Shown in pieces: positions 1-28,800 of a stretch of 64,000 bases of DNA; position 1 is the stretch's first letter; every line of letters begins with the position of its first letter. The stretch is from Minutocellus sp. GHC0000111. Taxonomy: Eukaryota. A program made the translations under genes and the position numbers. The notes beneath the pieces were generated by a model. That model made no database searches. It was not told where the DNA came from and saw only the letters and a program-made list of their open reading frames with translations. The DNA lies in contig OZ361259.1 of assembly GCA_977018835.1 (NCBI GenBank), forward strand, positions 1,674,001-1,738,000, read 5' to 3'.

Positions 1-778
1 CGACGGCAGAGGCAGAACGCACTACGAGCTGTCCCCAAAGGACATGGACGACGACACCTACTCCTTCACCGACCGTCCGCACCGAATCGCCGGAACGATC
101 CCCACGAAACAATTCGTCAAGGACTTTGGCACCACGTTCAGCATCGAGTCAGGCGGCCGGCCCAACGGCGTCGTCACCTTCCGCCACGCCGACGCCAAAA
201 GCTTCGAGGGCCCGCTCATCTCGGTCTTTGTCGAGGCCGCCCGCCACAAGGACAGCGGCAAGTACGTCTACGAGCTGACGCAAAGCGAGGAGCAGGAGGA
301 GGTGAACGCTCTCCGGGACTTCTTCCGCGAGGAAGAGGGCGGAAGCAATGACCCCGATGGCGTCGGTGTCGTCGAGTACGAGATGTGCTCCATCTTCATT
401 GACGCCAGTAACGAATGCGATCCTGCCAACGTTGACTCCTGCAAGATGGGCAATTGTGTGTGGAAAGAGTATAAGAGCGACTGCGAAGCATGTCAGTGCT
501 ACGTTTCTGGATATGGAGAGAGCAAGGCGCCTCCTTACTTTTGCGAGAAGAGTGCAAGAACTGGGAACAAGGCGAAGTGTGTGGACAAGAGGCCTAACGG
601 TGACATTTGTCACATGAGCTGGCAGTGCAAAGGTGGGTATTGCAGGCAAGATGGCTTTTGCGCATCGCTCAAAGACAATGGATCTAAATGCAGTAAGTCC
701 GAAGAATGCTGGTCAAATTATTGTGCCTCAAGGGGAGGGAAGGAACCGAAATGCAGGTTGAAAATCGATCCGCGATGA
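1..778 (+). CDS. 5'-truncated (window edge) secreted protein with an FTDRP-motif domain and Cys-rich C-terminal modules; tandem copy A
   Basis: Open frame to TGA at 778. Nt 1-~511 match 2674-~3184 with one visible mismatch. The C-terminus has repeated C-x5-C-x4-C modules. Confidence 0.8.
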   Translation, partial: DGRGRTHYELSPKDMDDDTYSFTDRPHRIAGTIPTKQFVKDFGTTFSIESGGRPNGVVTFRHADAKSFEGPLISVFVEAARHKDSGKYVYELTQSEEQEEVNALRDFFREEEGGSNDPDGVGVVEYEMCSIFIDASNECDPANVDSCKMGNCVWKEYKSDCEACQCYVSGYGESKAPPYFCEKSARTGNKAKCVDKRPNGDICHMSWQCKGGYCRQDGFCASLKDNGSKCSKSEECWSNYCASRGGKEPKCRLKIDPR

Positions 779-2203: not shown

Positions 2204-3474
2204 ATGGCAACCCGCGCCGTCGCAATTTTGTTATGCCTGCTCTGTTACGCGGCAGCTGCCCCACGCAGCAGCAGCGCGGTCTCCGACGGCGAGGAAGCGA
2301 CGCCGAGCCAAGTGATCCCTTGGCCGAGCCAGCCGAAGTCGACAACCTCGGCCGCGGTGCGACTTCCACTCGACGCGGCGGTCCGGTTCCATGAAGCCGC
2401 CGGCGGGGCCTTCCGAATCCTGAAGAAGGAACGGCGCCGCAGCAACTACAAGAAGGCGTCGGATCTGCCTGCGGCCGAGCAGCAGGACCGGGCGCTGTCG
2501 CCGTCAAATCTCCGTTTCCTCACCAGCGGCGACAACTCCTGCACCGACCAGCTCAACACGTGTCAGGTTGAACTCGACAATTGTCGGGAAGGCAAGGCGG
2601 CAGAAGCAGACGACAATGCCCCGTCCTACCTTTACGTGCAGATGGCCCAGACCTGCAAGCTGAAGCAGAAGACCGACGGCAGAGGCAGAACGCACTACGA
2701 GCTGTCCTCAAAGGACATGGACGACGACACCTACTCCTTCACCGACCGTCCGCACCGAATCGCCGGAACGATCCCCACGAAACAATTCGTCAAGGACTTT
2801 GGCACCACGTTCAGCATCGAGTCAGGCGGCCGGCCCAACGGCGTCGTCACCTTCCGCCACGCCGACGCCAAAAGCTTCGAGGGCCCGCTCATCTCGGTCT
2901 TTGTCGAGGCCGCCCGCCACAAGGACAGCGGCAAGTACGTCTACGAGCTGACGCAAAGCGAGGAGCAGGAGGAGGTGAACGCTCTCCGGGACTTCTTCCG
3001 CGAGGAAGAGGGCGGAAGCAATGACCCCGATGGCGTCGGTGTCGTCGAGTACGAGATGTGCTCCATCTTCATTGACGCCAGTAACGAATGCGATCCTGCC
3101 AACGTTGACTCCTGCAAGATGGGCAATTGTGTGTGGAAAGAGTATAAGAGCGACTGCGAAGCATGTCAGTGCTACGTTTCTGGACATGGGTCGAAACCCA
3201 ATAACAAACATGAGTTGAATGAGACGCCTCCTTGCTTTTGCGCGAGAAGAGTGCAAGAACTGGGAACAAGGCGAAGTGTGTGGACAAGAGGCCTAACGGT
3301 GACATTTGTCACATGAGCTGGCAGTGCAAAGGTGGGCATTGCAGGCAAGATGGCTTTTGCGCATCGCTCAAATCGGGCATTGATCGCTGTGGTGCAAACA
3401 TGGAATGCAGATCAATGCGTTGTTCTAATGGTTATTGCCAAGCTACTAAAGATTGGACGGACTGGCTCGACTGA
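2204..3474 (+). pseudogene. Tandem copy B of the secreted Cys-rich protein, frameshifted near 3241
   Basis: ATG 2204 is followed by a signal peptide (MATRAVAILLCLLCYAAA). Relative to copy A (TTTTGCGAGAAG) there is an extra CG (TTTTGCGCGAGAAG, 3241-3242), which moves the Cys-rich tail into ORF 3232-3474. Confidence 0.75.
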
Positions 3475-3768: not shown

Positions 3769-4944
3769 ATGACAAATTCCACTTACAGCGGCAGCGCACG
3801 CTGTGATATGGCCCATGATCAGGCAGGCCAGCATCAAATGCATCAAGGCACGATACGACGTCGACGAGGGGCCCTCGCATGTTTCGTCGTCGGATGTTCT
3901 GTGCTCTACTTTCACTTTCCTTCCTCCTCGAATACGATGCGGAGGTCACTTGCCATGGAAAGCAAAACAGACGTATCAACCAAGAAACGCCCACTCTTGA
4001 AGCTTTTGGAAGGAGGAGGGCGCCTCGGTGATCAGCTTTTCATGTATGCCTCCCAACTTGGCCTGGCTAAGACACATGACATGGACTCTTGTATGGTCAA
4101 GACCGATCAACGTTTGACCATCGAGCAGATGTTTGTAGGACCAATCGAGTGGTGCGATGACGAAGAATACGACATCGAGTGGGTGGGTGGCTGGAGATCT
4201 GAGAAGGTCAGCCAGCTTCGACGCGTCGACGACGATGCGGATCTTGTCTATGGATTGAGTGGATACATGCACTCGCCTCGAAACTTTGTCGCGGCCAAGA
4301 CGCCCAGCGGAGACTTTGTCGACTACAGCGACCTACTGTATGAAAAGCTGACGTTGAAAACAGATGCAGAGTGGCAGGACGCGATACAAACGATAATGAA
4401 AGAGGGCGAACGCGACGAAGATGAATCCACTGAAGTAATAAAGGTTGGCATCCATGTTCGGCGAGGAGACAAGGTTGATGATCCCAAGTACACCGTGGCT
4501 GATGCCGACTACTATCGAAGGGTCATGGACTATTTCCGCAAGAAATACAACCGTGATTGCGAATCAAGCGGCGACACAGAGGATTGTAAAAGGGCTCGAG
4601 TCAAGTTTTACATTAGCACCGACACAATTTCCTGGATTGATGAAAACGACGAAACATTCGAGCATCCGGACGTCGTACTGTTATCGAATGCAGCCGAAAC
4701 AGAGGAGGAAGATAACGTGTGTGTCATGATCGACTTCGCAATGCTTACAAAATGCGATCACATTATCCTTTCGGGAGGAGGATTTGGTTTTTGGGCGGCC
4801 TATCTTGGTGCCAATCAGAATGGTGGGGAAGTGATCATCGGGTCAGCACAAGAGCATCTCAAAATGAGAACATCTAGCCTTGAGGAGTGGACCAACATTG
4901 ACAAAGTAGACTTCGATGCAGAGAACATTGCGGCTGTTAAATAA
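3769..4944 (+). CDS. Glycosyltransferase family 11 (alpha-1,2-fucosyltransferase-like), type II membrane protein
   Basis: GT11 motifs GRLGDQLFMYA, VGIHVRRGD and DFAMLTKCDHIILSGGGFGFWAAYL, plus an N-terminal TM segment. Start codon uncertain (3769 or 3808). Confidence 0.9.
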   Translation: MTNSTYSGSARCDMAHDQAGQHQMHQGTIRRRRGALACFVVGCSVLYFHFPSSSNTMRRSLAMESKTDVSTKKRPLLKLLEGGGRLGDQLFMYASQLGLAKTHDMDSCMVKTDQRLTIEQMFVGPIEWCDDEEYDIEWVGGWRSEKVSQLRRVDDDADLVYGLSGYMHSPRNFVAAKTPSGDFVDYSDLLYEKLTLKTDAEWQDAIQTIMKEGERDEDESTEVIKVGIHVRRGDKVDDPKYTVADADYYRRVMDYFRKKYNRDCESSGDTEDCKRARVKFYISTDTISWIDENDETFEHPDVVLLSNAAETEEEDNVCVMIDFAMLTKCDHIILSGGGFGFWAAYLGANQNGGEVIIGSAQEHLKMRTSSLEEWTNIDKVDFDAENIAAVK

Positions 4945-5006
4945 CATGTATCTCTAAATTTACTGTTGCGCTTATTTATTCTCACGATTGTAAATCACTC
5001 TTCCAA

Positions 5007-5265
5007 CTACCCACAAGTGCCGTCATGTCGGCACTTTCTCCCGGCGGGGCACTGGCTAGAGTAGCGGCACATGCTCGACGTTGTCTGGGTCATGAGGTTA
5101 GACGTCGTGCCAAGTCCAGCATCTAGAATCACATTGGGTTCAGCTCGTCGGGTCATCTTCTCCTTGATCTTGGCCGGTCCCTGCTTCTTATTGCCGGGAT
5201 ATTCGCGAGATGTTTCGCTAAGGAAGAGGGTTGCCACGCCGGCGACCATGCCAGCGGCGGTGGAG
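5007..5265 (-). pseudogene. 3' fragment of the subtilisin-like S8 protease gene (STAAGMVAGVATLFL...CRHDGTCG*), separated from the 5' part by the 7.1-kb insertion
   Basis: Translation continues the S8 catalytic helix (consensus GTSMAxPHVAGVAAL) and joins in frame to 12370+ across the duplicated TGGAG. Confidence 0.88.
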
Positions 5266-5313
5266 AGTGATCATTACAGTCTAAGCTACTACTTTAAAGT
5301 GCCTACAATTGGA

Positions 5314-6680
5314 TTACTCAACATGCACTGAAAAATCGTTGTCCTTGACAGTAAATGCTCGAGCAGCTGCTTCTTCGTTTCTCAAGTGGTTGTGTGCGCA
5401 GGTGTACCAAATGGAGCGAACTGAACTGAAAATGTCGTCGCCCTTTTCATTCTTGTACTTTGTCAGTGCATCGTGCCTTCTTTTGTCCAGGGTTCGATTT
5501 GTGTGCAAACTGATTGTCGTTGGCCACCATTTAGTTCGGAGCCAGTCGTACCCTTCAACTAGCTTCTTCTGGTTGTCTGTGCGACTTGCGACCTCCACCT
5601 CCAGCACCGCCAAGACGTCATCCACGAATCCAATGGCCGTGGCCTCGTCGTCTCGATCGTTCTGCTCCTCCTCCGTCAAGTCTCGCTTGAAGTGGCCGAG
5701 AAAGGTGGCGTTCTTCAGTGCAGACAGGTAGTTCATCTGCCTTCCGGCTTGGTGTGCTTGCTTCACAAAAGCAGCGGCCAGGTACAGCAGGACGTGCCTT
5801 GGGGTGGATCCATCAGCCACTGTTCCGTCGTCGTTTCGATAGTACTCTCGACCCTGAGTCTGCTGTGTCGACACCCCTCCGGAGCGATTGGCCCCCCAGC
5901 AGCCGGCTGGACTCTCGGGTCGTCCAGGAACTGATCAATGTGGGGGGCGGTGGGTCTGAGCAGGGCCCGGATGGTCTCCACAAACTTGTGCCGGTGGCGG
6001 TAGACGATTGCCGTCATGGGCAAAGCGCCCTCGCCAGTGCCGTCGTCGTCGCCGCCGTCATCGTCGTCGTCACCCCAGAGGAAAGCATCTTCCTCGGCCT
6101 GCCGCTGATCCTTGATGGCCAGGCCCTCCTGCGTCGGCTCCACAGAGAGGCCGGCCCTGCTGCTGCGCTGCATGGCCGCAAATGACGCGTAGGCCGTGCC
6201 GTCCTGGCCGGGAAAAGACGGGAGGAACATTGCCGTTTGCTCGGCCTCCACCACCTCCGACCATGCATCTATGAAGCTGCTTTCTATGGCCTCGAGAGCT
6301 GTAGCCCCCCCTGCCCTCTCTTGCACCATTTCGAGGAACTCTTCATGGGAGACCCCCAGGGCCACGGCGGCGTCGGCCAGCTCGTCGACCAGTTTCCCAA
6401 ACCACTGGTCCGGAGCTCCGGGTTCATCGATGGCCCTCTGGATCTGCTCCTGGACAAGCGCGCTCGCCGCTCGCACGGCGATGCTCTCTGGAGGGGCTGG
6501 CACGTCCGAGAGTTGCGGTGGGACAGGCGCCGTGGGCACGTCTACACCCAGCTCTTGAAGCCGCTGGCGAGCTGTGGCTGCGGTGGCCAGTGCGCGGGCT
6601 ACATCGTTGGGATCATATGTTGGTGGGTCTCCCGCACCTCCGCCTTGCGTCCCGGCGGGATCGGCTCGTTCGTCACTCAT
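5314..6680 (-). CDS. Element ORF1, unknown protein; probably one gene with a frameshift at about 5875-5930
   Basis: Overlapping ORFs 5763-6734 (ATG at 6680, MSDERAD) and 5314-5874. The second frame is open up to ~5930 and the overlap contains a C6/G6 run (5892-5897). Confidence 0.6.
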
Positions 6681-6786
6681 GGCGACGGCCCAGATATGAA
6701 TGGCCGTAAGCTCCCCCCCATATTTTCCCCGCATTTCAAGTTTGCTTTCCCCCTCATTCCTACTTTTGCTTCATTATTTGACTGTT

Positions 6787-8214
6787 ATGGTATCCACCGC
6801 CGCCGAACCCACGAGCAACGGCCGCCGCAGCTTGCGCAGCAGCAGTAATAAGGAAAAGAAGAAGCCCGATGGCTGCCTAACTGGCAAGGTTGAGTACCTC
6901 CATGCGCCTGCTCCCCACGCCATCATCACCGAGAACAATCGCAAGAGACGAGAGACTGAGGCGGCCAAGATGGCGGCCGAGGAGCAGATGCAGCAGCAGA
7001 AGCGCACGCGCATGTCGGAGGTGACGGCGGCGACGGCCGATGCGTCAGTATCCAGCAGCGGAGGCGATACTGAGGGCGGTAATACCAATGGGATGCAGAT
7101 GGATGATGATGATGCAGAAACCACCATGGCGGAGGTCGCCACCACCACCACCAACAATAACAACAACAACAACAACACGGAACCGGCTGATACGGCAACG
7201 GACGGCGCCAACGAGCCTTCCGACGGAGAGGACGGAGATGCCAATGGCGTGCCCGGGACGATATCCGTCGTCGGCCCGGACCAGGCCAACGCTGTCGGCC
7301 GCAGCAATGGTGCCGGTGCTGGTGCCAATCTCAGTGATGCGGCCGTCGGTGGCAGCACCAGCCATGGGGACGGGGCCGAAGACCAGCCTGCGGATGGGGC
7401 GGGCGGGACGGGCGAGATGAACGTCGTTGACCCGCTTGTCGGCATTATGCGGTCGTACTGTGCTTTGAAAGGGATTGGCGTCGACAAGGCCGAGCTGATG
7501 GCAATTGCCGCCCTTAGAGCTGCCACGGGTGAAGCGGAAGTTACCGGTGGCGGTGATGGCGGTTGTATCGGTGGTGCCGCCGATGTGGGCCGCCTCACTA
7601 TCCCCCCCGCCAATGGCGGCGGGGGACAGCCTACGGAGGAGCAGATGGCCTTTGTTCGGACGTCCGTTGGGTTGGCCGATGCATCGGATGCATCGCCGGA
7701 AGTGCTGCTGAATGCGGTGGTCCCTTTGTGCTGCTCCCTGGCCATGGACTGTTACCTCCTGGGAAAGGAGCTGGGTGCTTCCAGTCGGGCAGGGATTATG
7801 GCGGCCGAGGCGCTGTCCCAGGAGAAGGGGAAGGGAGTGGGGCTTGGAAAGGCCAATGCCGAGCTTGCAGCCAAATGCAATGGGCTCGAGGCAGACGTAA
7901 CGGAGCTAAGCCAGAAGCTAGAGACTTTGAATGTGGAGGAGGAGGAGGAGGAGGAGTGGGAATTCATAGCTCACGATGGTGATGAGCGATACCATTGGGT
8001 GCCTTGTCTGTTGAGCGGAGACCTGGATCGTGGCCACAACCGTCTGCTCAACTCAATCTGTGACAATCTCAGTTTGCCCAGGACTGGTAGAATGGAGGAC
8101 AAAGTCCATCGCCTGCGCTCATACGTTGGGGAGAAGGCAGCTGAAGCCCGTTGGGTCAGCGATGACGGCGATGACAGCGATGGTGCAGAGGAGGAGGCAA
8201 TGGACGAGGAGTAA
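6787..8214 (+). CDS. Element ORF2: low-complexity N-terminus, coiled coil and C-terminal SAP-like motif
   Basis: ATG 6787, basic NLS-like patches, poly-N/T and poly-E tracts. LLNSICDNLSLPRTGRMEDKVHRLRSY resembles the SAP consensus (L...C...GL...G.K..L..RL). Confidence 0.65.
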   Translation: MVSTAAEPTSNGRRSLRSSSNKEKKKPDGCLTGKVEYLHAPAPHAIITENNRKRRETEAAKMAAEEQMQQQKRTRMSEVTAATADASVSSSGGDTEGGNTNGMQMDDDDAETTMAEVATTTTNNNNNNNNTEPADTATDGANEPSDGEDGDANGVPGTISVVGPDQANAVGRSNGAGAGANLSDAAVGGSTSHGDGAEDQPADGAGGTGEMNVVDPLVGIMRSYCALKGIGVDKAELMAIAALRAATGEAEVTGGGDGGCIGGAADVGRLTIPPANGGGGQPTEEQMAFVRTSVGLADASDASPEVLLNAVVPLCCSLAMDCYLLGKELGASSRAGIMAAEALSQEKGKGVGLGKANAELAAKCNGLEADVTELSQKLETLNVEEEEEEEWEFIAHDGDERYHWVPCLLSGDLDRGHNRLLNSICDNLSLPRTGRMEDKVHRLRSYVGEKAAEARWVSDDGDDSDGAEEEAMDEE

Positions 8215-8332
8215 AATGTAGCAAGTCAATGTCTGTCGGACGGAAAGTGAAGAGGTAGAAGTAGATCTAGAGATAGCAGTAGAGTCGGATGGTAGATAAT
8301 TTAGTTTAGGGGATCATTCATTCTAGAAACAT

Positions 8333-10072
8333 TTATTCCTGATCAGATGCTTTTCGAGCCTCCCTCAGCTTTGCCCTTGTAACACGAACGCCCTCATCAA
8401 ATTCATATTGCAATATTTCCTGCATGTCGCTATAAAATTGCGACAGGCATCCCTCGTGGTCCTCTACCTTGCCCTTGCGATATCTGTTGACAAAAGGATC
8501 AACAATCCAATCGAACTGGCCACCGTGCCGGTGGCTAAAGGCCTGCAATGTCCTAGCGCCGTCCTCCAAATACTTGTTTAAGTATTGGCCGATAGAAGCC
8601 ACCGTTTCATTTACCCCTCCTCTATTTTCGGGAAATACGCAGGAATCGAGCTGGGCCTCGAAGTTCCCACCACCGTCACAAGCTGCAACCGCTACGCCAA
8701 ACGCTTTCACGTGAGAATTTGGCCCCGAATAATACAAACCAAGTCCAACTTTCTTATTGCCCATTTGATGAAACGATCGAAGGGCCACTTCATCCGTTGG
8801 CATCACTCCACCGTACATGCCCTCCACGATGGCACAAAGAGAGAAAAGAGCCATGGCTCTTTGATTCTCGTTGCTGGTACCGCGAAATACGTCAGTCGCG
8901 AAGGCATCAACATATTCCTTGACGGTATTCGACATGAGAGACATTCCTCTGTACGTGAGGTATTGCTTCGGAGTCCAAAGACCCAAATCGATGGCGCGGT
9001 TGTACACTATCTCTGCATCTTCATCGCGCATTGTGTGCGTAGGAAGGACAGTAACGATAGTGCTGAAAAAAGCGGTATTTGAAAGCATAATCTCCGCCTC
9101 CGCCGCGGACTTTGCCTTGGAAATAAGATGGTTTCGAATTCTCATTCTTCTGGACACCTCATCCTCCGAAAGATACGGAGTTGGCTTGGTAGCGTTTTCG
9201 ATGCAGAAGGACGCATCGTCGAGATGCTCCAGAAACACATTCCAGAGCATCCAAAACATTCTCGGCGTATGCATGTATCGCATAACGATATCCGCGCCTC
9301 CCATGGCAGGATCACGTCTAATGTAACACAGGAATTTGTTGAGCGATTCCAACCGACCACCTTTCATCAACACTACCGACCGTGCCTCCTCATCGGATCC
9401 GTTGAGAATGCTATCCAATTCTGACTGGCTCCATTCACTCTTCTTTTTTGTAGATACGCGCGCATTGTACAATTGCTCCCGATAAGACGTGAGTAGATAC
9501 GGCTCGCCATTTCGTATCTCGTCCTTCTTTTTCATCTCATGGGGAACCAAGTGAGTTGCCACTTTGTGCTTTGCAAAGCAAACCAGCAAATTTCCGAGAG
9601 TATCAGGATTGTTCTTGCATGCTCTATCAATCCAACGAAGATGGCTGTTGTTGATGATATCGCCCGCTCTTATCCGCTCGTCGCTCCGTATCGGTACCAT
9701 TGCATCACACATGTTCGGGGGCAGCACATACTCCAACTCTTTGAACAGGTTGTTCTTGCCTGCCTGCCAGTAATGCGTTACAAATACATTGTAAGCGATG
9801 GCTCGGCCGGACCGGACAGAGTGCTTCACCGCACCTTTGTTCCAGGCAAAGGATGGCTTGGATATGATAATGCCAGCTGCTTTGCTCTTGGCTCCATCGT
9901 TGAGCATCTCGATTGTTGGTTGACGCTCGCGCTGGACATAAGCCGACTGATTGGCGCCGCTTCTCTTTGGCTGGTTGTGCCGCTTGCTACTTGGGACACG
10001 CTGCCGACCGGGCCCTTTGGGTCCTTTCGCAGGGCGACCACGGCTGCGCGCCTTTGGCTTTTGAGTATCCAT
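8333..10072 (-). CDS. Element ORF3: basic N-terminus plus divergent HhH-GPD (endonuclease III/Nth-like) DNA glycosylase fold
   Basis: FFSTIVTVLP...TPKQY...RAMALFSLCAIVEGMYGGVMPTDEVALRSFHQMGNKKVGL...PNSHV...VNETVASIGQ follows Nth motifs in order. The open frame extends to 10210, so the start is uncertain. Confidence 0.7.
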   Translation of the reverse strand: MDTQKPKARSRGRPAKGPKGPGRQRVPSSKRHNQPKRSGANQSAYVQRERQPTIEMLNDGAKSKAAGIIISKPSFAWNKGAVKHSVRSGRAIAYNVFVTHYWQAGKNNLFKELEYVLPPNMCDAMVPIRSDERIRAGDIINNSHLRWIDRACKNNPDTLGNLLVCFAKHKVATHLVPHEMKKKDEIRNGEPYLLTSYREQLYNARVSTKKKSEWSQSELDSILNGSDEEARSVVLMKGGRLESLNKFLCYIRRDPAMGGADIVMRYMHTPRMFWMLWNVFLEHLDDASFCIENATKPTPYLSEDEVSRRMRIRNHLISKAKSAAEAEIMLSNTAFFSTIVTVLPTHTMRDEDAEIVYNRAIDLGLWTPKQYLTYRGMSLMSNTVKEYVDAFATDVFRGTSNENQRAMALFSLCAIVEGMYGGVMPTDEVALRSFHQMGNKKVGLGLYYSGPNSHVKAFGVAVAACDGGGNFEAQLDSCVFPENRGGVNETVASIGQYLNKYLEDGARTLQAFSHRHGGQFDWIVDPFVNRYRKGKVEDHEGCLSQFYSDMQEILQYEFDEGVRVTRAKLREARKASDQE

Positions 10073-10512
10073 GGCTGCAAAGCGATATGTTTGCGATCGG
10101 CCGCCAGCAAATGCAAGCATGGAAAAGACAAAATGTGATTTTTCGTTGGATTTTTCGATTGTTTTTTCGACCAGGGGGAGGCTGATTTGATTTATTTTTA
10201 ATTTCATCACATGAAAAGATACAGATACAATACCTACCTTCCCATCTTTCTCACATCATGTACTTTCAGCATAAATATCAATATTTCTTAGAAAGGACCC
10301 CAAACCGTCAAAAACAGAGCTTTGCTTCTTCTCGCGCGGCATGTCGCGTGCCTTTTGGAGGGAAAACGGGGGTCTCCTCCTTTAAATTCCCCCTTATATT
10401 CTGAGACAAATGGGTTATGAGTCAGTCATGCATTCATCTCACATGTTGCGTTGCCGGCACCGGAGGAGCGGTTGTACTGGGCCGGAGTTGCTGAAAAGGA
10501 GGAGGGAACATC

Positions 10513-12198
10513 ATGAACTTCCGTAACATCGCTATTGCTGCGCTTGCCGCTCTCGGCTCTCAGCCGACAGAGGTGTCCGCCCGCGCTCTCCGCCACCGCC
10601 AGGGGGAGGCCTCATCCACCCGAGGCGATGGGCCATCGCACCATCCATGGGCGTACGGCGCAGCAGCTGCTGCAGCGGCGGCATTTGCTGCGGCAAATAT
10701 GGTGGGCGGAGGCCGAGCTCGTGGTGGCCGCCGCTCAGCTGCCAATGGCGACGAGGAGGAGGTCGACGAAGAGGAAGACATCGCCCCCCTCCCCAGCTCG
10801 TCTGACACCCCCGGAACAGCCAATCCTCTCGCGCGCATGGGGTCTGTTCCGGGACCAATCCCCGGGGCGGCACGGGAGGTCGAGTCCGCCCCTGCTATTC
10901 GCCGGACCGGACCACGACTTGGCAACACGTCCGGCCAAAGGAGGCGCCGCGACACTCTCCGCATGCTCGGGGGGCAGCCACCAGAGCTCATACCAGAAGG
11001 CACTCCCCCGTCTGGACTAGAGATCGACGTCCCGATGTTTGAGATAGACCGAGAATACGAGAAGGCAGGATTCGAGCTCACCACGCCGGGCGTGTTTTAC
11101 CACGAACGGACGCAAATGCCCTACCGTCTTGTGGGTGTGCTGGAGGGAACCAGGGACTGCCTGGTTCGCCTCCGAGTTCTGGACGACGTTGTTGATGCCA
11201 CGGAAACGGCCACCGCCCATCAACAGCTCGAGGACGCGCGGCTAGATCATTCGGCGGAGTCGATAGGCGACATCCTTCTGACCATTCCTATTGCCATCGA
11301 CGATGACTCTGATCTTACCCGTCCCTTCGGATACAAAGGCCTACGGAAGGCGCCAACCATCAAGGCTCTAAAGATACCATACGAGACCGAGCAGGAGATT
11401 GCTGACCACATCGCCGGCATGAGGGGAGAGTATGTCGTCTACTACAAGGTGATCAACGGGGAACGGAAGAGGAAGGTCGTGAGGTCAGCAGCAGGGATCC
11501 CTCGGCGTGCGAACCTGAAGAACTACCGCGTTGATGAACTTGTTATGATATCCAAGGCTACACCGGAAGAAAGATCGCTTCACCCTCGCGTCCCAAGTTA
11601 CGGCGGCACCGTTGCCGATTGTCAAAGGTTTCATGCTGATTTGTCCAAGCATAAAAATCTTGTGCTTGCGACATACGCTAAGTACATAGTTGGGCGTGAT
11701 CTAGTGCCAGTTTCAGACTTGGAAATGGTCCCAGCAGCTGGGAAGCACTGGGTGATCGCAGAGGAAATATTGGCCCAGCGCATGGACACGTGGGGAGAGT
11801 ACAAGGACTCTGCAAATTTTGTGGGTACCGCGAAAGTTACTTACCGCAAAATAACTGCACTTACCAATGCGGTGATGTTTGGCACACACCACAAGCTTAC
11901 ACCGAACTGGAGCGATGACTACCATTCCTGCCACCTGGGTTGCGAAGGAGAACACAACGGCACCTGCACACTGTACACTCACGTGACGTTTGGTACGGCG
12001 AAACTAAACGAAGGCCTTCACAAGAAGTGCCCTGGCCACATCGTCGTGGTGCAACCCGGCGGCAGGCTCCGTGCGTACAAGGTGTGCCGATGTGATGCAG
12101 ACCCCAGCCAGACCCCAGCACAACTTTGCTGCATGAAGATGAGGGTAGTTTCAGTTGGAGCGGAGGTGCCCCTGGTGTGGGTCGGAGGAAGGGTGTAG
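10513..12198 (+). CDS. Element ORF4: C-terminal His-Cys box / His-Me finger zinc-binding endonuclease (I-PpoI-like homing endonuclease family)
   Basis: HSCHLGC..HNGTC....HVTFGT...N....KC.G...CRC...CC matches the SHLC-HN-xxC-xxxxH-x8-N-x5-C pattern of the His-Cys-box zinc loop. Confidence 0.72.
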   Translation: MNFRNIAIAALAALGSQPTEVSARALRHRQGEASSTRGDGPSHHPWAYGAAAAAAAAFAAANMVGGGRARGGRRSAANGDEEEVDEEEDIAPLPSSSDTPGTANPLARMGSVPGPIPGAAREVESAPAIRRTGPRLGNTSGQRRRRDTLRMLGGQPPELIPEGTPPSGLEIDVPMFEIDREYEKAGFELTTPGVFYHERTQMPYRLVGVLEGTRDCLVRLRVLDDVVDATETATAHQQLEDARLDHSAESIGDILLTIPIAIDDDSDLTRPFGYKGLRKAPTIKALKIPYETEQEIADHIAGMRGEYVVYYKVINGERKRKVVRSAAGIPRRANLKNYRVDELVMISKATPEERSLHPRVPSYGGTVADCQRFHADLSKHKNLVLATYAKYIVGRDLVPVSDLEMVPAAGKHWVIAEEILAQRMDTWGEYKDSANFVGTAKVTYRKITALTNAVMFGTHHKLTPNWSDDYHSCHLGCEGEHNGTCTLYTHVTFGTAKLNEGLHKKCPGHIVVVQPGGRLRAYKVCRCDADPSQTPAQLCCMKMRVVSVGAEVPLVWVGGRV

Positions 12199-12369
12199 AG
12201 AGGCCAGCGTTCTTTTAAGTAGTAATTTCGAACTGTCGCCACACATGATGGAACCTTGAGCCTCTCCGGACACATAGCTGAGTTCCTAGCGCAAGGTCGT
12301 GACTGGTATGTAAGGTATTGACTTCTATAGCATTAACCTAAGCTATTCGTTATTGCTCAATTCAACTAC

Positions 12370-13879
12370 TGGAGGTGCCCTGAGCTTGGACGGATCCGTC
12401 GGTGCCAACGTTGGATGCACCGGTAATGGTGGAGCCAGGAGCAAAGAGGTCGATGCAGGCTCCATAGTTGGAGAAGGATGAACGCGTGTGAGATCCGGAG
12501 AGGCTGTCATCGACGGCGGCGACCGTAATGGCCAGGCTTGAGTAGGGAGAGAAGTTGCAGGCGTCAGCTATAGATTATTGAAAGAGGCAACAGAAAGGGA
12601 TCGATTGAGATATATCATGTGAAGGATACTGCAGTGAAGACATAAACTGTATATATTAATAAATAGAAGCCGACTACTTACCGTTCTCGTTTCCGGCAGC
12701 AATCACCACGGTAATGCCCTCGTTGACCATTTCTTCCACGGCCTGGTTCAGAATTTCACTCTGTCCCTGCAGACCCCACCCAATGACCGCCACGGCCTTA
12801 CTCTTGGTGCTGCCATGGCTAGCCTTGTGATTGCTCGCCGCCCATTCCATACCGCAAAGCACCGACGTCGTGGTACCCTCGCCGTTCATGTCCAAAACTT
12901 GAACGGGATGAAGCGTCGCCGCCTTACCGGCACCATAGGATGCTCCACCTGCAATCGAAGCAACGTGAGTACCATGGACAGTGTTCGACCAGTCACTAGA
13001 TCCACCGGTGCAGCTCGTGCCACTTTGCATCCTACCTGAGAACTCTTGATGGGCCGTGTGAATACCCGTGTCGAGGACGTAGAGATCGATATTCTTCCCA
13101 TCGTGAAAGTAAACATATGCTCCATTGCGCGGGCCGCGGGATGACATGCGATCTAGTCCCCAGTTTTTAGATGGATCGTCGATGTTGTTCCATCGCCACA
13201 TGGCCAGGGAACGATGCCCATCATCGACAAAGGTTTCCTCGAGCATCCGTTTGGTCTGCGCCTGCTCATCGGACAGTCGACGCTGGCTCCCGGCCTCCTC
13301 ATCGACATCCTGGGCCTCCTGGAGGTTTCGAACATGTTCGGCAATGGGCACCGCCTGGGCCGTACCTCGGGCGTAGACCTTGTAGTTGTTCTCCATCAGC
13401 ACGACGCTGGCATCGAGTGCCATGGCGGCAGCCTGAGCCTCCTTCAGTATGGCACTGAATCCCTTGATGGTTTGATCGTAGGTCGCCATCAGTGTGCCGC
13501 CGTAGGTGCTGATCAAAGAGGAAGCGGTCACGTCAGCCTTGGGCATGTTTCTACCAGTTGCGACAGTTACAATGTATTCCGAAGGAATTATATCAGATGC
13601 TGGCGGCGGGTTGGCCACGGCTAGATGACGCTCGGTGGTTTGAGAAGAGTCGGTCTCGAGACGGCGGAGGGGGTTGGCTTCGTTGCCATCGGGGGTACGC
13701 GTGTTGATCTTTTGAGAATCTTTGTTCTGTGACCGACTCTTGACTGCGAGATATCTTCGTTTTTGCTCGAAATTATCAGAGCTAAAGGATGTCATACCCA
13801 GAATGCACACGCCGGCAGCCATAAGAGTTATGGAGAGGACGGTCATGGTCCGCTTGCCGTCTCGTCGGCTGCCGGTCAT
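12370..13879 (-). pseudogene. 5' part of subtilisin/proteinase-K-like S8 serine protease (I9-like prodomain); exons 13879-12682 and 12567-12370
   Basis: Catalytic Asp (YVLDTGI), His (HGTHVAS), oxyanion Asn (AAGN), SNYG and IDLFAPG motifs, then GTS running into a stop inside the insertion. GT-AG intron 12681-12568. Confidence 0.92.
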
Positions 13880-22824: not shown

Positions 22825-25800
22825 ATGGACAGCAACCCTTCGAATGGTAAAGGACAAGTTGCCTCGGTGGCATCCGGCGATATCGTCAGCGATCATGAGA
22901 TCTCAGCACAAGATGTGCCGGCTACAAACGCCCGCCCCGGCGCACAAGAGGGTGTTGAAGGGAACCCGAACTCTGCCGGTACCGCAAATGCGAATGCAGC
23001 ATCAACTAATGACCGGAGGGACACCCCCATGTCTCCGCGCGGTGATTTGGACGCGGCAGTAACAAACTTTGTCAAGCATGGGTCGTTTGATATTTCGAGA
23101 AATGGCGAGGGCGGTACTAGTAATGCTGAAAATGACTCAGGTGACGAGAAACCAGCACATGATGGTTCGCGTAATCAAAGGGACGATAGTAGGGAGGGAA
23201 ACGATACAACGAAAGGAACTCCTGATAATTCGGCGGTGCCCAAGATGGATGGTAGCAGAGCCATTCAATCATCTGCCCCAGCCGCTGACAAACCAAAGTG
23301 GTCCTCCCCAGGAGATGGCAATCCTCGTCAATCCGACCGACTTACCGTCAACAACAAGCCAGCCTGCGCCTACGACGGCTGTCCCAAGCAATCCCAAGGA
23401 CGCAGACTCAACTTTATGTGCATGGCGCACTTCAAATCCATCACCGGGGGCAAGATGATCACACCGATTAGCAAGACTGCCTACGATCCCAACAAGGTGA
23501 TTCCGGCAGAAGATGTCGGCAAAGGCTGGACGGTATTGGAAGTGCCCCGCATCAAGGTCAAGAAGACGAATGGAACGAAGACGGTGGACAAGTACTGGTT
23601 CTCACCCGTCAAGCACCACCGTTTTAGGTCGAGGGTGGAGATTGAACGCTTTCAAAAGGCATTGGAAGAGGTGGACGGTGGTGATGAAGATGCTGCCTGG
23701 GAATTATTCCGAAGGGGTGGCAAGAAGGACAGCCGATCGGCCAAGGGGAATGGCAATGGCGATGGCGATGATCGGTGTGAAGATAGCGATTCTTCTTCCG
23801 ACGAGGACGATACCAGCGATTGGATATGTGACAATTGCGGGGCAGAGGTTCCCGAATCGTTGTCGCGATGCAAGTGCTACCGATGGCGCAATGGCATTCA
23901 TCCCATGATGAAGAAGAAGTTTAGGCGCCAATGAGAACAGGCACGGGCATTGGCCGAACGTTCTGGCGATGATAATGAAGATCTCAATGGTGAATACTGG
24001 GATAAAGACGAGGGTAACGGCGGTGGTGCGGAGAAGGTACCCGGCGCAACAACCACGCGTTCTGGGCGCAAGAGCGGTCGCCGGAAGACCCTTGCCGACG
24101 AGCAGGCCAAGGCCGCCGAGGCAGCGACCAAGAAGAGACAGCGTGGCGCCAAGGCTGCTGCCGCCGGCAAGGAGGACACCATTTCTACTGCTAGCCCTGG
24201 AAAGAGTGCCATCGTCACAACAAAGAGCAGCAGGGCGGCACCACCAACGCCGGCCAAGGCGCGGAAGCGTGTCAAGTCATCTGCGAAGGCTCGGCGAGAT
24301 TCGCGAAAGCGAGAGGCGGCCGAAGAAGAGGAGGTGGCCGCCGAGGAGGGCAAGTTGAGCGATAGTTTTCATGCCACGATGCTACGGGCGGTCAACGAGG
24401 CGCCGAATCCGTATGCGCAGGCCCTTGCCGCAGCGGCTTTCGATGCTGCCGGCGGTGATGCTTGGCTCCGGGAGCATGTGACCAAGCAAGCCGTGAGGAC
24501 GAATGTAACCCTAAAGGTGCTGGGGATGGCACCGATTCCGCCAACAAAGATACTTTCAGCAAAAGAAGATTCCGTGAAAGATGTTTTGGAAGAGATCGTA
24601 TCCGCAGTCGAGGCTAGAGATCTTGCGGTAAACCTTCCGTCGAACTCGTTTGTTGTGTCCTTGAGCAAACCAATGGGAATCACCCTATCGCAGAAGGATG
24701 GTGGCGGCGTTCGAGTCTCAGCAATCAAGGCCGGCAGCCCTGCCGATGTTTCAGGCAAAGTCAAAATCGATGATACTCTTCTAGCAGTAAATGGAAAGGA
24801 TGTGAGAAAGAAGGAATTCCGCGCTATCCTTGATGTCATCGGCAAGAGTGGACCGTCCGTGGACATGCTCTTTTCCTCTAAAGAAGAACAGAAAGAGCAG
24901 CCAAACCATGCCATTACGCCTGAAACTTCTATTCCCATTGTCTCAGAGAAGAATAATCTTGTCGATGACAACTATACTGCAATGGAAATTGAGAATGAAG
25001 TACCTCCGGATACTCCCGCCGAGCCTCTGGTGGAAGACCCTCATTGGGATTGGGACGAGGCGAAGCAGATCAGCTACCGGCAAGTTCTGCGCATATCGGT
25101 CAAAGATCCTCACGCGAAGCAGCTTGTGACCGATGCTCGCATCAGTGGCATTCCTGTCGTTCTCACAGATCATATTGGATGGGCTGGGTTTGCCGCCCGG
25201 TGGCTCCGCCGAAAAGACACCGAGGAAGCCCTTGATGTATGTGGCGACGAGGAAGAAAAGAAGTCCGATGGTGGGAGGGAGGCTAGCAATGCAGAAACAA
25301 TCGATGGCAAAGCCCTCGATCTATCTGATCCTTCTCTCTACCTTGACGTGGAGGCAATGGCAGAAGATACTGGTGAGCAAGAGGTTCCGGTCATCAAAAA
25401 GAGCTATGACGACACAGATCCCATCGCCGGCAAAATCCCTCTTCATGTATTTTTGCAAGAGTCTTGGCCTTCTCGTACATCAAAGACTGCGCACAACCAA
25501 ACGCTCTACCTTCACCAATGGCAATTTCCTTTGAATGAGGTGGCAGGCCGAAAGCTTTGCCACCAAAGTCAGCCCCTTCCCAACTCAATTTTTGGAGAGG
25601 ATTTGCATAAGTATTGGCTGGATCGGGTGCCAAACGATTCCTCTCTGCAATATCTTTTTATGGGCAATGAAGAAACGATGAGTCGCATGCACAAGGACCC
25701 TGGCGGCCTTGCCATTACGATTGCGCCGATTGTTGGCGAAAAGGAATGCGTGCTTGTCCATAGAGATGACGGCAACACTTGCCTCTATCACTTGGAAGCA

Positions 25801-28800
25801 TCGATTGACCCCGATAACATTGATCTCGATGCCTACCCTCTCCTTGCAAATGCTCGTATTTGGCGAACAACGGTGAAGCCCGGAGAAATTCTTCTCATGC
25901 CACAGGGCACCTACCATCAATGTCGCAACGTGAAGTCCTGTCTCTCCTATAGTCGATTCCATCTGGATGAAGTGAATCTACCAGCGTTCTTACAGAGCTT
26001 GTTCGATGGGGACGCGACCGAGCTTCTGCACGACGAAGTCATCTGGAACGCGGTCGAAGCACTAATGAAGAAGGTGGACAAAGTCACCGATGCCGGCCAA
26101 GATCTTGTGAAGAATTCCATAAAAGAAGGGAAAGCCGCCCCACTTTCCCCAGGCGATATGCGGGTGAGCGAGGACATTTGCAAGGCAATTAATGCCCTCC
26201 GGTCACTCCGTCATGTTGCTCGCGAGATTGCACGTAAGCTCGACCTCCGGGAAGCCGTCAAGGGTGTTGGTGTCGACGAAATGCCCGGGCCGTCTTCCGG
26301 CACCAGCAAAATCGAGGGTGGTAAAGAGACCTGGTTTGCAATGGTCGAAGATATTGACTATTGTTTGCATGAATTTCGCTATCGCTTCTCCAAGGAGGTT
26401 CCGCCTCTTTCATTGCGGTGATGCTTGGCTCCGGGAGCATGTGACCAAGCAAGCCGTGAGGACGAATGTAACCCTAAAGGTGCTGGGGATGGCACCGATT
26501 CCGCCAACAAAGATACTTTCAGCAAAAGAAGATTCCGTGAAAGATGTTTTGGAAGAGATCGTATCCGCAGTCGAGGCTAGAGATCTTGCGGTAAACCTTC
26601 CGTCGAACTCGTTTGTTGTGTCCTTGAGCAAACCAATGGGAATCACCCTATCGCAGAAGGATGGTGGCGGCGTTCGAGTCTCAGCAATCAAGGCCGGCAG
26701 CCCTGCCGATGTTTCAGGCAAAGTCAAAATCGATGATACTCTTCTAGCAGTAAATGGAAAGGATGTGAGAAAGAAGGAATTCCGCGCTATCCTTGATGTC
26801 ATCGGCAAGAGTGGACCGTCCGTGGACATGCTCTTTTCCTCTAAAGAAGAACAGAAAGAGCAGCCAAACCATGCCATTACGCCTGAAACTTCTATTCCCA
26901 TTGTCTCAGAGAAGAATAATCTTGTCGATGACAACTATACTGCAATGGAAATTGAGAATGAAGTACCTCCGGATACTCCCGCCGAGCCTCTGGTGGAAGA
27001 CCCTCATTGGGATTGGGACGAGGCGAAGCAGATCAGCTACCGGCAAGTTCTGCGCATATCGGTCAAAGATCCTCACGCGAAGCAGCTTGTGACCGATGCT
27101 CGCATCAGTGGCATTCCTGTCGTTCTCACAGATCATATTGGATGGGCTGGGTTTGCCGCCCGGTGGCTCCGCCGAAAAGACACCGAGGAAGCCCTTGATG
27201 TATGTGGCGACGAGGAAGAAAAGAAGTCCGATGGTGGGAGGGAGGCTAGCAATGCAGAAACAATCGATGGCAAAGCCCTCGATCTATCTGATCCTTCTCT
27301 CTACCTTGACGTGGAGGCAATGGCAGAAGATACTGGTGAGCAAGAGGTTCCGGTCATCAAAAAGAGCTATGACGACACAGATCCCATCGCCGGCAAAATC
27401 CCTCTTCATGTATTTTTGCAAGAGTCTTGGCCTTCTCGTACATCAAAGACTGCGCACAACCAAACGCTCTACCTTCACCAATGGCAATTTCCTTTGAATG
27501 AGGTGGCAGGCCGAAAGCTTTGCCACCAAAGTCAGCCCCTTCCCAACTCAATTTTTGGAGAGGATTTGCATAAGTATTGGCTGGATCGGGTGCCAAACGA
27601 TTCCTCTCTGCAATATCTTTTTATGGGCAATGAAGAAACGATGAGTCGCATGCACAAGGACCCTGGCGGCCTTGCCATTACGATTGCGCCGATTGTTGGC
27701 GAAAAGGAATGCGTGCTTGTCCATAGAGATGACGGCAACACTTGCCTCTATCACTTGGAAGCATCGATTGACCCCGATAACATTGATCTCGATGCCTACC
27801 CTCTCCTTGCAAATGCTCGTATTTGGCGAACAACGGTGAAGCCCGGAGAAATTCTTCTCATGCCACAGGGCACCTACCATCAATGTCGCAACGTGAAGTC
27901 CTGTCTCTCCTATAGTCGATTCCATCTGGATGAAGTGAATCTACCAGCGTTCTTACAGAGCTTGTTCGATGGGGACGCGACCGAGCTTCTGCACGACGAA
28001 GTCATCTGGAACGCGGTCGAAGCACTAATGAAGAAGGTGGACAAAGTCACCGATGCCGGCCAAGATCTTGTGAAGAATTCCATAAAAGAAGGGAAAGCCG
28101 CCCCACTTTCCCCAGGCGATATGCGGGTGAGCGAGGACATTTGCAAGGCAATTAATGCCCTCCGGTCACTCCGTCATGTTGCTCGCGAGATTGCACGTAA
28201 GCTCGACCTCCGGGAAGCCGTCAAGGGTGTTGGTGTCGACGAAATGCCCGGGCCGTCTTCCGGCACCAGCAAAATCGAGGGTGGTAAAGAGACCTGGTTT
28301 GCAATGGTCGAAGATATTGACTATTGTTTGCATGAATTTCGCTATCGCTTCTCCAAGGAGGTTCCGCCTCTTTCATTCAGCAGGCCAAGGGGAAAGAAAC
28401 GCTTTGCTTTGCCATCGACACTGATGAAGTGCAAACGTGACGACGCCGCGAACATCACGGTGTACAATGGATACCAACGAGTTGATAATGACGAAGATGG
28501 AAGCCCAATATTGGCCTTCTCCACAGACATTGAGCGCGGATACATTTTGCTTTCAAAGGCCCCGGCACAAATGACGGAGGAAGAGCGACTGCAGATGAGC
28601 AAGAAGATTGCAAATCTTTCCATCGGCGAGACAATTATGGTCAAAGTGAAGAACAAAATGTGTGACGCGACTGTGATGGAGATTCGCAAGCACGAACACG
28701 CTGCATACATCAGCTACGAAGCCTACCCGGGTCTCTACGATGAATATCTACCAACAAATCTCTTGCGTGAACCCATTGGCGGCAAAGCAGAGGTGCCGCT

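What the first reader, a model, noticed from the sequence alone, without database searches (positions are those of the whole stretch)
8580..9075. Element-borne endonuclease-III-like (HhH-GPD) protein with catalytic Asp changed to Asn and no Fe-S motif
Seen: YGGVMPTDEVALRSFHQMGNKKVGL parallels Nth (NGEVPEDRAALEALPGVGRKTANV) and keeps the HhH Lys. PNSHV replaces VDTHI after a shortened loop. VNETVASIGQ parallels INGLLVGFGQ. There is no C-terminal 4-Cys cluster. Established: Nth-family enzymes need Lys plus Asp, and DME/ROS1 5mC glycosylases use this fold. Inference: a repurposed DNA-binding or AP-lyase protein that could process ends or counter host methylation. The function is speculative.
Basis: partly seen in the sequence, partly recalled or inferred. 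Interest (0 to 1): 0.75.

Follow-up and report, generated by a model that had tools for sequence, protein, structure and literature searches.

The report
Broken glycosylase in algal mobile element
A 7.1-kb DNA insertion in a marine eukaryote (likely a diatom) carries a likely distant relative of the repair enzyme endonuclease III beside a likely homing-type nuclease; this copy has lost ten amino acids including the predicted catalytic aspartate and is likely dead, while its relatives keep it, so the interest lies in the element and its predicted active enzyme, not in a repurposed variant.

Summary
The quoted motifs are real. They form the C-terminal domain of a ~580-aa protein (8333-10072, minus strand) that matches HhH-GPD glycosylases by profile (hhalign 85%; Nth/MutY HMMs E~0.01 for a relative). 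Structure models were too poor to test the fold. The 'Asp to Asn change' is not a family trait: all 9 relatives spanning the site keep FGD[SC]H, with a loop 10-15 residues longer. The window's 'PN' is the junction of a net 30-nt in-frame deletion, confirmed in runs of three studies. Lys-to-Asn spacing is 12, against 18 in 28 of 28 reference enzymes, so this copy is likely dead. The missing Fe-S motif is family-wide. The gene is element-borne: it lies in a 7,104-bp insertion (5266-12369) with a 5-bp duplication, which splits a subtilase at its catalytic-Ser motif on one allele. A colinear relative, with the His-Cys-box-like nuclease gene, occurs in a second organism. No transposase was found. 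Verdict: repurposing not supported; a decayed copy of a small, apparently undescribed, element-carried Lys+Asp glycosylase/lyase family whose substrate is untested.

The parts
5266..12369 (.). 7,104-bp insertion element, present on one allele
   Evidence: Joint 5248->12370 in X1, X4, X5; contig depth ~86 inside against ~165-190 (two alleles of ~90-95) in the flanks of X1; length
5261..5265 (+). Left copy of the 5-bp duplication TGGAG
   Evidence: Sequence; organism B's empty site runs on from 5265 into the sequence of 12375 onward (loose end of X10)
12370..12374 (+). Right copy of the 5-bp duplication TGGAG
   Evidence: Sequence
8333..10072 (-). Gene for a ~579-aa protein: basic N-terminus, ~330-aa region of no known family, HhH-GPD-like domain, C-terminal helices (frame open from 10210)
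   Evidence: 81% identical to P0002; RNA-library contigs cover parts of it (X6 9086-9445 and 9663-10058; X7 8634-8850 and 9358-9524)
8580..9075 (-). HhH-GPD-like domain (residues ~379-544 of the 625-aa frame)
   Evidence: hhalign aligns 169 columns to Nth 29-204
8753..8755 (-). Lys486, aligned to Nth Lys120; invariant in the family
8717..8722 (-). Pro497-Asn498: junction of a net 30-nt in-frame deletion that removed the loop and the Asp kept by relatives
   Evidence: X10 contigs stop aligning at 8718 and 8724 with 14 and 51 extra letters
10513..12198 (+). 561-aa ORF with a C-terminal His-Cys-box-like (His-Me finger) nuclease domain, divergent from the glycosylase gene
   Evidence: PF05551 E 0.087, below cut-off; H474, C477, C485, H490, N499, H503, C506 conserved in P0004 (49% identical); RNA-library contigs 10519-12289 (X6) and 10471-11972 (X7, two contigs)
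6700..8214 (+). 504-aa low-complexity ORF of no known family
   Evidence: no family over a cut-off; pieces present in the X10 relative
5763..6734 (-). 323-aa ORF of no known family
   Evidence: pieces present in the X10 relative
5314..5874 (-). 186-aa ORF of no known family, overlapping the 323-aa ORF
   Evidence: pieces present in the X10 relative
12300..12366 (+). ~67-bp right-end unit, shared with many diverged copies that have different neighbours on both sides
   Evidence: Summed depth ~1,000-1,400 at 12324-12325 against ~86 inside; loose ends at 12299-12301 and 12366-12368; no meaningful Rfam match
12375..13879 (-). 5' part of the interrupted host subtilase (I9 + S8) gene, ending at the catalytic-Ser motif GTS
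   Evidence: Pfam Peptidase_S8 E 2.9e-11; the reading frame continues across the two flanks
5007..5265 (-). 3' part of the interrupted host subtilase gene

Best explanation
The 8580-9075 domain is a likely HhH-GPD glycosylase domain of a mobile-element cargo gene whose relatives keep both predicted catalytic residues, and this copy is likely inactive because a net 30-nt in-frame deletion removed its loop and Asp, leaving Pro-Asn at the junction. Shown: the insertion, its 5-bp duplication, the deletion relative to all relatives, conserved Lys and Asp in relatives, no Fe-S motif in any member, and linkage to the nuclease gene in two organisms. Inferred: the fold (profiles only), the loss of activity, and a recent date for the deletion. 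Mechanism I commit to for intact members (inferred, untested): a bifunctional base-flipping glycosylase/AP lyase. Asp and Lys would excise a modified base and nick the strand through a Schiff base, in the service of the element's own DNA. The likeliest substrate is 5-methylcytosine or an oxidised pyrimidine (about 0.3 for 5mC anti-silencing). The element shows no transposase, so it is likely moved in trans by relatives that share its right end.
For: Asp is kept in P0002 (81% identical), P0005 (59%) and the seven members of the P0006 cluster (36-40%): 9 of 9 sequences, three lineages. Lys-to-Asp spacing is 22, 22 and 27 in relatives, 18 in 28 of 28 reference HhH-GPD proteins, and 12 here. The 50 residues before the junction are the best-conserved block against P0002 (98%; other blocks 66-86%), which fits selection on the HhH core until lately. 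Organism B's contigs carry extra DNA exactly at 8718-8724. Fold: hhalign 85% against controls; NCBIfam mutY and nth; 5 of 9 PDB profile hits at E<=10 are HhH-GPD; 15 of 23 profile hits in 151 bacterial genomes are HhH-GPD genes, including the best 7. D138A abolishes both Nth activities. Element evidence.
Against: Both AlphaFold models were low confidence (pLDDT 34.8 and 45.6), so the fold is not structurally tested. All sequence matches are weak, and the two best PDB profile hits were unrelated anti-CRISPR chains (E 0.03). The deletion keeps the frame, the rest of the ORF is intact, and the PN form is in runs of three studies, one an RNA library, so a retained non-catalytic role is possible. 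No excess of changes in the window lineage was shown (10 vs 3, p 0.09; 7 vs 5, p 0.77). Organism B's extra letters were not displayed, so its Asp is inferred. The genomic context of P0002, P0005 and the P0006 cluster is unknown. Nothing tests the substrate.
Confidence: 0.68

Rival explanations
1. Repurposed Asp-less protein: the change was selected, and the protein binds DNA or acts as an AP lyase for the element.
For: In-frame deletion, ORF otherwise intact, Lys kept, PN form in three studies and in an RNA-library contig.
Against: 0 of 9 relatives share it. A spacing of 12 is unlikely to put the Asn where the Asp sits (inference from 18 in 28 of 28). Nth D138A loses AP-lyase activity and the ability to distort DNA. 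All PN carriers are near-identical, one recent lineage.
Confidence: 0.1
2. Homing-type selfish element: the His-Cys-box-like nuclease would cut the empty subtilase allele, the element would be copied in by repair, and the glycosylase/lyase would help by nicking or unmasking the target.
For: Nuclease motif with the I-PpoI H110-to-N119 spacing of 9. Insertion at a catalytic motif. Organism A's empty allele has lost a net 9 nt next to the site (X1, X2, X4, X5, X11), while organism B's is intact, as a repair scar would look. No transposase found.
Against: A 5-bp duplication and a shared multi-copy right end fit transposition. The 9-nt loss could be an excision footprint or an old allele difference (the alleles differ at many sites). 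Organism B holds both the element and an intact empty site. The nuclease match is under the Pfam cut-off, and S97/E114 equivalents are not kept.
Confidence: 0.15
3. Passive cargo: a captured, fast-evolving repair glycosylase carried by a non-autonomous element, with no role for the element.
For: This copy tolerates loss of the Asp. The right end is shared by copies with different inner neighbours, as in elements that swap cargo.
Against: Gene order is kept in two organisms at ~82-88% DNA identity. The HhH core is the best-conserved block. The family is far from ordinary Nth, with an extra ~330-aa region.
Confidence: 0.12
4. The domain is not HhH-GPD and the motif likeness is chance.
For: No Pfam hit; fold searches on poor models gave no HhH-GPD row.
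Against: Colinear profile match over 169 columns with Lys and Asp in register, beating all controls; four searches point to the same superfamily; the source's own name for P0008 is endonuclease III.
Confidence: 0.05

Closest known systems
Endonuclease III (Nth; E. coli b1633, PDB 2ABK, 1P59) and other HhH-GPD glycosylases (MutY, MIG)
   Same: Helix order, HhH motif with Lys120 equivalent, Asp138 equivalent in relatives, last helix of the domain.
   Different: No 4-Cys Fe-S motif; longer Lys-to-Asp loop in intact members (22-27 vs 18); ~330-aa N-terminal region and C-terminal helices; element-borne; this copy lacks the Asp.
DME/ROS1 (DML) 5mC glycosylases
   Same: HhH-GPD motif with Lys and Asp (in relatives) in an enlarged eukaryotic protein.
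   Different: DML proteins are 1,100-2,000 aa with a [4Fe-4S] cluster, a discontinuous catalytic domain and a conserved C-terminal domain (PMC6728418, passages); none of these is seen here.
KolobokP transposons (His-Me finger, I-PpoI-like nuclease)
   Same: Eukaryotic mobile element with a His-Cys-box-type nuclease gene.
   Different: KolobokP has a DDD/E transposase and ~450- or ~660-bp terminal direct repeats with inverted ends (PMC9587614, passages). Here there are no long terminal repeats, no transposase was detected, and there is a glycosylase gene.
Fungal DNA transposons encoding TET/JBP dioxygenases
   Same: Functional analogy only: elements carrying a DNA-base-processing enzyme proposed to erase silencing marks (PMC12730594, passages).
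   Different: Unrelated enzyme and fold; those elements encode transposases; 5mC as substrate here is untested.
CryptonS elements of oomycetes and a diatom
   Same: 5-bp direct repeats at the ends, no long inverted repeats (PMC3212892, passages).
   Different: CryptonS encode a tyrosine recombinase and mostly have TATGG ends; no recombinase was detected here and the repeat is TGGAG.

Membership tests
HhH-GPD superfamily | HhH motif within the helical glycosylase domain, by sequence profile | tested here: met
   hhalign 85%, score 42.7 vs <=20.7 in controls; NCBIfam mutY/nth for P0008; weak but consistent
HhH-GPD superfamily | Two-domain helical fold by structure | tested here: inconclusive
   pLDDT 34.8 and 45.6; the models are too poor to compare
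HhH-GPD superfamily | Invariant Asp after the HhH (family members) | tested here: met
   9 of 9 relatives spanning the site, aligned to Nth D138
HhH-GPD superfamily | Invariant Asp after the HhH (this copy) | tested here: not met
   Removed by a net 10-residue deletion; Asn at +12 from the Lys
Nth (endonuclease III) family | HhH Lys nucleophile (Lys120) | tested here: met
   Lys486, invariant in 10 of 10 aligned sequences
Nth (endonuclease III) family | C-terminal 4-Cys [4Fe-4S] motif | tested here: not met
   No Cys in the 30 residues from IGQ in P0002 and P0005, two in P0008; the window's only later Cys is residue 588
Nth (endonuclease III) family | Score over the curated nth cut-off | tested here: not met
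   15.1 bits vs 211.7 for the best relative
Nth (endonuclease III) family | Excises oxidised pyrimidines with AP-lyase activity | not testable with these tools
   Needs an enzyme assay
DME/ROS1 (DML) | 1,100-2,000 aa with a discontinuous catalytic domain | tested here: not met
   579-625 aa; the domain aligns to Nth without a long insert; features
DME/ROS1 (DML) | [4Fe-4S] cluster and conserved C-terminal domain | tested here: not met
   No Cys cluster; no Pfam family at E<=1 (window) or E<=5 (P0002)
DME/ROS1 (DML) | 5mC excision | not testable with these tools
   Needs an enzyme assay
His-Cys-box (I-PpoI-like) nucleases, for ORF 10513-12198 | Catalytic H98, H110, N119 with zinc-binding Cys/His | tested here: inconclusive
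   H474, H490, N499 with H-to-N spacing 9 as in I-PpoI, first gap 16 vs 12, conserved in P0004; PF05551 13.5 bits vs cut-off 27; P0004's tail gave no Pfam hit
KolobokP | Long terminal direct repeats | tested here: not met
   No long repeat between the element's ends; end-to-end likeness not significant
KolobokP | DDD/E transposase | tested here: inconclusive
   None detected in five ORFs by Pfam, PHROGs, NCBIfam or PADLOC, but the three ORFs of no known family were not searched for homologs
CryptonS | Tyrosine recombinase | tested here: inconclusive
   Not detected in the same family scans; unknown ORFs remain
CryptonS | 5-6-bp terminal direct repeat, mostly TATGG | tested here: inconclusive
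   A 5-bp repeat is present but reads TGGAG

The most novel reading that the evidence does not exclude
A new class of nuclear selfish element without a transposase: an I-PpoI-like nuclease drives homing into a conserved protease motif, and an Fe-S-free HhH-GPD glycosylase, evolved independently of DME/ROS1, strips 5-methylcytosine from the element or its target. This host shows the end of the cycle: a scarred, cut-resistant empty allele and a newly broken glycosylase.
Probability: 0.12. Interest if true: 0.88.

Novelty: new variant of a known kind. Interest (0 to 1): 0.47.

Why it matters
The headline claim, a repurposed Asp-less Nth, falls: the copy is likely broken. What remains is a small HhH-GPD family without Fe-S, carried with a His-Cys-box-like nuclease on a eukaryotic insertion element conserved in two organisms. 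I found no description of such an element in five full-text searches (mostly listings read). A survey of 15 species found no HhH-GPD gene expanded by mobile elements (PMC4860697, passages). If the intact enzyme removes 5mC, it would be a second origin of glycosylase-based demethylation and a new way for elements to escape silencing. The intact relative (P0002) and this natural deletion form a ready wild-type and mutant pair for the assay.

Tried and rejected
Structure: two AlphaFold jobs (P0002 full length, P0008 domain) gave pLDDT 34.8 and 45.6. Foldseek and VIA-align (best Z 6.0, helical bundles) listed no HhH-GPD chain; on such models this says nothing either way. ESM Atlas gave no usable hit twice.

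DNA context of relatives: none found in metagenome contigs, viral contigs or genome contigs; no whole genome is held. A search for longer relatives gave only P0001 and P0002. tblastn of P0008 against phages gave only tape-measure chance hits among the 20 of 74 listed. Against plasmids it gave 3 hits at E 4-10, one of them an nth gene.

Element ends: a direct-repeat likeness between the two ends is not significant (147 of 2,000 shuffles score as well; inverted 1,639 of 2,000). Terminal hairpins are not more stable than shuffles (z -0.02 to 1.01). Rfam gave 4 chance-level matches. Removal of the element as an intron of the host gene: 21 in-frame donor/acceptor pairs near the ends, none free of stops. 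CpG depletion: none (o/e 0.94 in the element vs 0.99 elsewhere), so no sequence trace of methylation. A Replitron-like reading (fuzzy right end, RG target) stays a lead only: no Rep gene was seen, and the paper found none in diatoms (PMC10288648, passages).

Other: the relative-rate test for relaxed selection was not significant. RNA-library contigs leave parts of the element uncovered, which is no evidence on expression. Earlier-findings look-ups gave nothing bearing on this. No paper supplements were opened; the KolobokP nuclease alignment (Data S3) could bear on the nuclease assignment.

Full report
Observation. The motifs are in a minus-strand ORF, 8333..10210. The closest relative, P0002, begins at the Met at 10072, so the protein is probably ~579 aa. 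Positions: YGGVMPTDEV 8815-8786, GNKK 8761-8750, PNSHV 8722-8708, VNETVASIGQ 8614-8585, with a single Cys after that. The window looks eukaryotic; 'diatom' is my inference from neighbouring genes and comes from no call.

Is it HhH-GPD? The window protein alone matches no such family in Pfam or NCBIfam and no such PDB chain. Searches found few relatives: P0001 (the same gene, one residue different) and P0002 among 7,997 scored candidates. A full scan of 1.84 billion representatives gave 4 hits: P0002, P0005, P0006 and P0007. The P0006 cluster has 7 members, and its source names one of them endonuclease III. With these relatives the link shows. P0008 hits only mutY (E 0.0068) and nth (E 0.013) in NCBIfam. 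The family profile gives 9 PDB hits at E<=10: 5 are MIG, EndoIII or MutY, while the top 2 are unrelated. In 151 bacterial genomes the profile rang in 23; 15 of these are HhH-GPD genes, including the best 7 (one locus gave no hit in my re-scoring). Against a profile of 28 HhH-GPD proteins, hhalign aligns 169 columns at 85% probability, score 42.7, versus at most 20.7 for 29 shuffles and 13.3 reversed. Lys486 falls on Nth Lys120 and the relatives' Asp on Asp138. Against E. coli Nth alone the probability was only 3.9%. Two AlphaFold models were too poor to test the fold.

The Asn. All 9 relatives that span the site read FGD[SC]H[VI]K; P0007 and P0014 do not reach it. Lys-to-Asp spacing is 22 in P0002 and P0005, 27 in the P0006 cluster, 18 in 28 of 28 reference enzymes, and 12 (to Asn) here. 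Against P0002 the window lacks a net 10 residues: twelve residues ending in the Asp are replaced by Pro-Asn. In run X10 (organism B), one contig stops aligning at 8718 with 14 letters left and the next starts at 8724 with 51 letters left, so it has extra DNA at exactly this place (the letters were not shown). The short form is real: contigs of X1, X2, X4 (one study, possibly the source), X5 (second study) and X7 (RNA library, third study) cross it with no gap. The 50 residues before the junction are 98% identical to P0002, the best block of the protein. I read this as a recent deletion in a conserved gene. Nth D138A loses both glycosylase and AP-lyase activity (PMC5924532, passages), so this copy is likely inactive. 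Against this: the frame is kept, and no relaxed selection was shown (p 0.09 and 0.77). The lack of an Fe-S motif is shared by P0002, P0005 and P0008, so it is a family trait.

The element. Contig depth in X1 is ~86 from about 5300 to 12300 and ~165-190 in the flanks, and X1, X4 and X5 hold a contig joining 5248 to 12370; X2 and X11 show the same junction as a loose end. The insertion is thus on one allele. It splits a subtilase gene (Peptidase_S8) just after the GTS motif, and the two flanks read in frame. TGGAG is duplicated at 5261-5265 and 12370-12374. Organism B's empty site runs from 5265 straight into the sequence of 12375 on, confirming a 5-bp duplication and a 7,104-bp element. Organism A's empty allele is a net 9 nt shorter at this site: a repair scar, an excision footprint or an old allele difference. 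Organism B holds a colinear relative at ~82-88% DNA identity in the longer listed pieces (about 81% in two short ones), with one contig spanning the start of the glycosylase gene and the nuclease gene. Its locus is unknown. The nuclease ORF (10513-12198) has one relative, P0004 (49%), a sub-threshold PF05551 match (E 0.087), and a conserved H-C-C-H-N-H-C series whose H-to-N spacing equals I-PpoI's H110-N119. RNA libraries X6 and X7 hold contigs over most of it and over parts of the glycosylase gene; contigs show neither strand nor level, and DNA can be present. The last ~67 bp (12300-12366) recur in many diverged copies with different neighbours. No transposase or recombinase was detected in the five ORFs; homolog searches were not run for the three ORFs of no known family.

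How it likely works. Intact members have the Lys and Asp of bifunctional HhH-GPD enzymes, so they would flip and excise a base and nick the strand (established chemistry, inferred for this family). Kept gene order in two organisms suggests a role for the element. Removal of silencing 5mC is the most attractive role by analogy with TET-bearing fungal transposons (PMC12730594, passages), but nothing here tests it; I give it about 0.3. The element is probably moved in trans by relatives sharing its right end. A homing cycle driven by the nuclease is the main rival, supported by the lesion in the empty allele and weakened by the duplication and by organism B's intact site.

Comparison. It works like Nth but fails Nth membership (no Fe-S motif; 15 bits against a cut-off of 212). 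It is not a DME/ROS1 protein by size, Fe-S cluster or C-terminal domain (PMC6728418 and PMC2715244, passages). The element is not KolobokP, lacking long terminal repeats (PMC9587614, passages). It shares only a 5-bp end repeat with CryptonS (PMC3212892, passages). Five full-text searches listed no eukaryotic element with this gene pair; for most papers I saw only the listing, and most subscription journals are not in the library.

Verdict. Observation confirmed; the repurposing idea is not supported. This is a likely broken copy of an apparently undescribed, element-carried, Fe-S-free HhH-GPD family. New variant of a known kind; interest 0.47.

Noticed in passing
window 9940: The window reads A where every laid run covering the place (X1, X2, X4, X5, X6, X10) reads C; database protein P0001 has Asp where the window frame has Tyr. 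Probably an error in the window's sequence; it lies outside the domain.
   Followed up: partly
window 5248-5265 / 12370: Organism A's empty subtilase allele has lost three codons in frame right after the catalytic-Ser motif, so both alleles of this protease gene may be damaged.
   Followed up: partly
window 12299-12368: Two other copies of the ~67-bp right-end unit are preceded by what reads as an ORF ending ELLYE[KR]-stop with synonymous differences (loose ends): a possible lead to the mobilising gene.
   Followed up: no
window 10186-10336: In run X10 the spacer between the glycosylase and nuclease genes has about three times the depth of its neighbours, with loose ends: shared with other copies or elements in organism B.
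   Followed up: no
window 8085-8160: The end of the 504-aa ORF resembles a SAP DNA-binding motif (recalled pattern); Pfam gave no hit.
   Followed up: partly
window 32978-34153: 391-aa ORF whose C-terminus (PKWHLLEDH...EQFVERAH) recalls Transib/RAG1-like transposase motifs (recalled); no Pfam hit. Possibly a second, unrelated transposon.
   Followed up: partly
window 24452-28377: Perfect tandem duplication of 1,963 bp inside a gene; a recent duplication or an assembly artefact.
   Followed up: no
window 1-673 and 2674-3372: Near-identical repeated gene segments about 2.7 kb apart.
   Followed up: no
window 4588-5232: The two alleles of the flanking DNA differ at many sites (for example 12 listed differences in 4863-4939): a very heterozygous or hybrid genome.
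   Followed up: no
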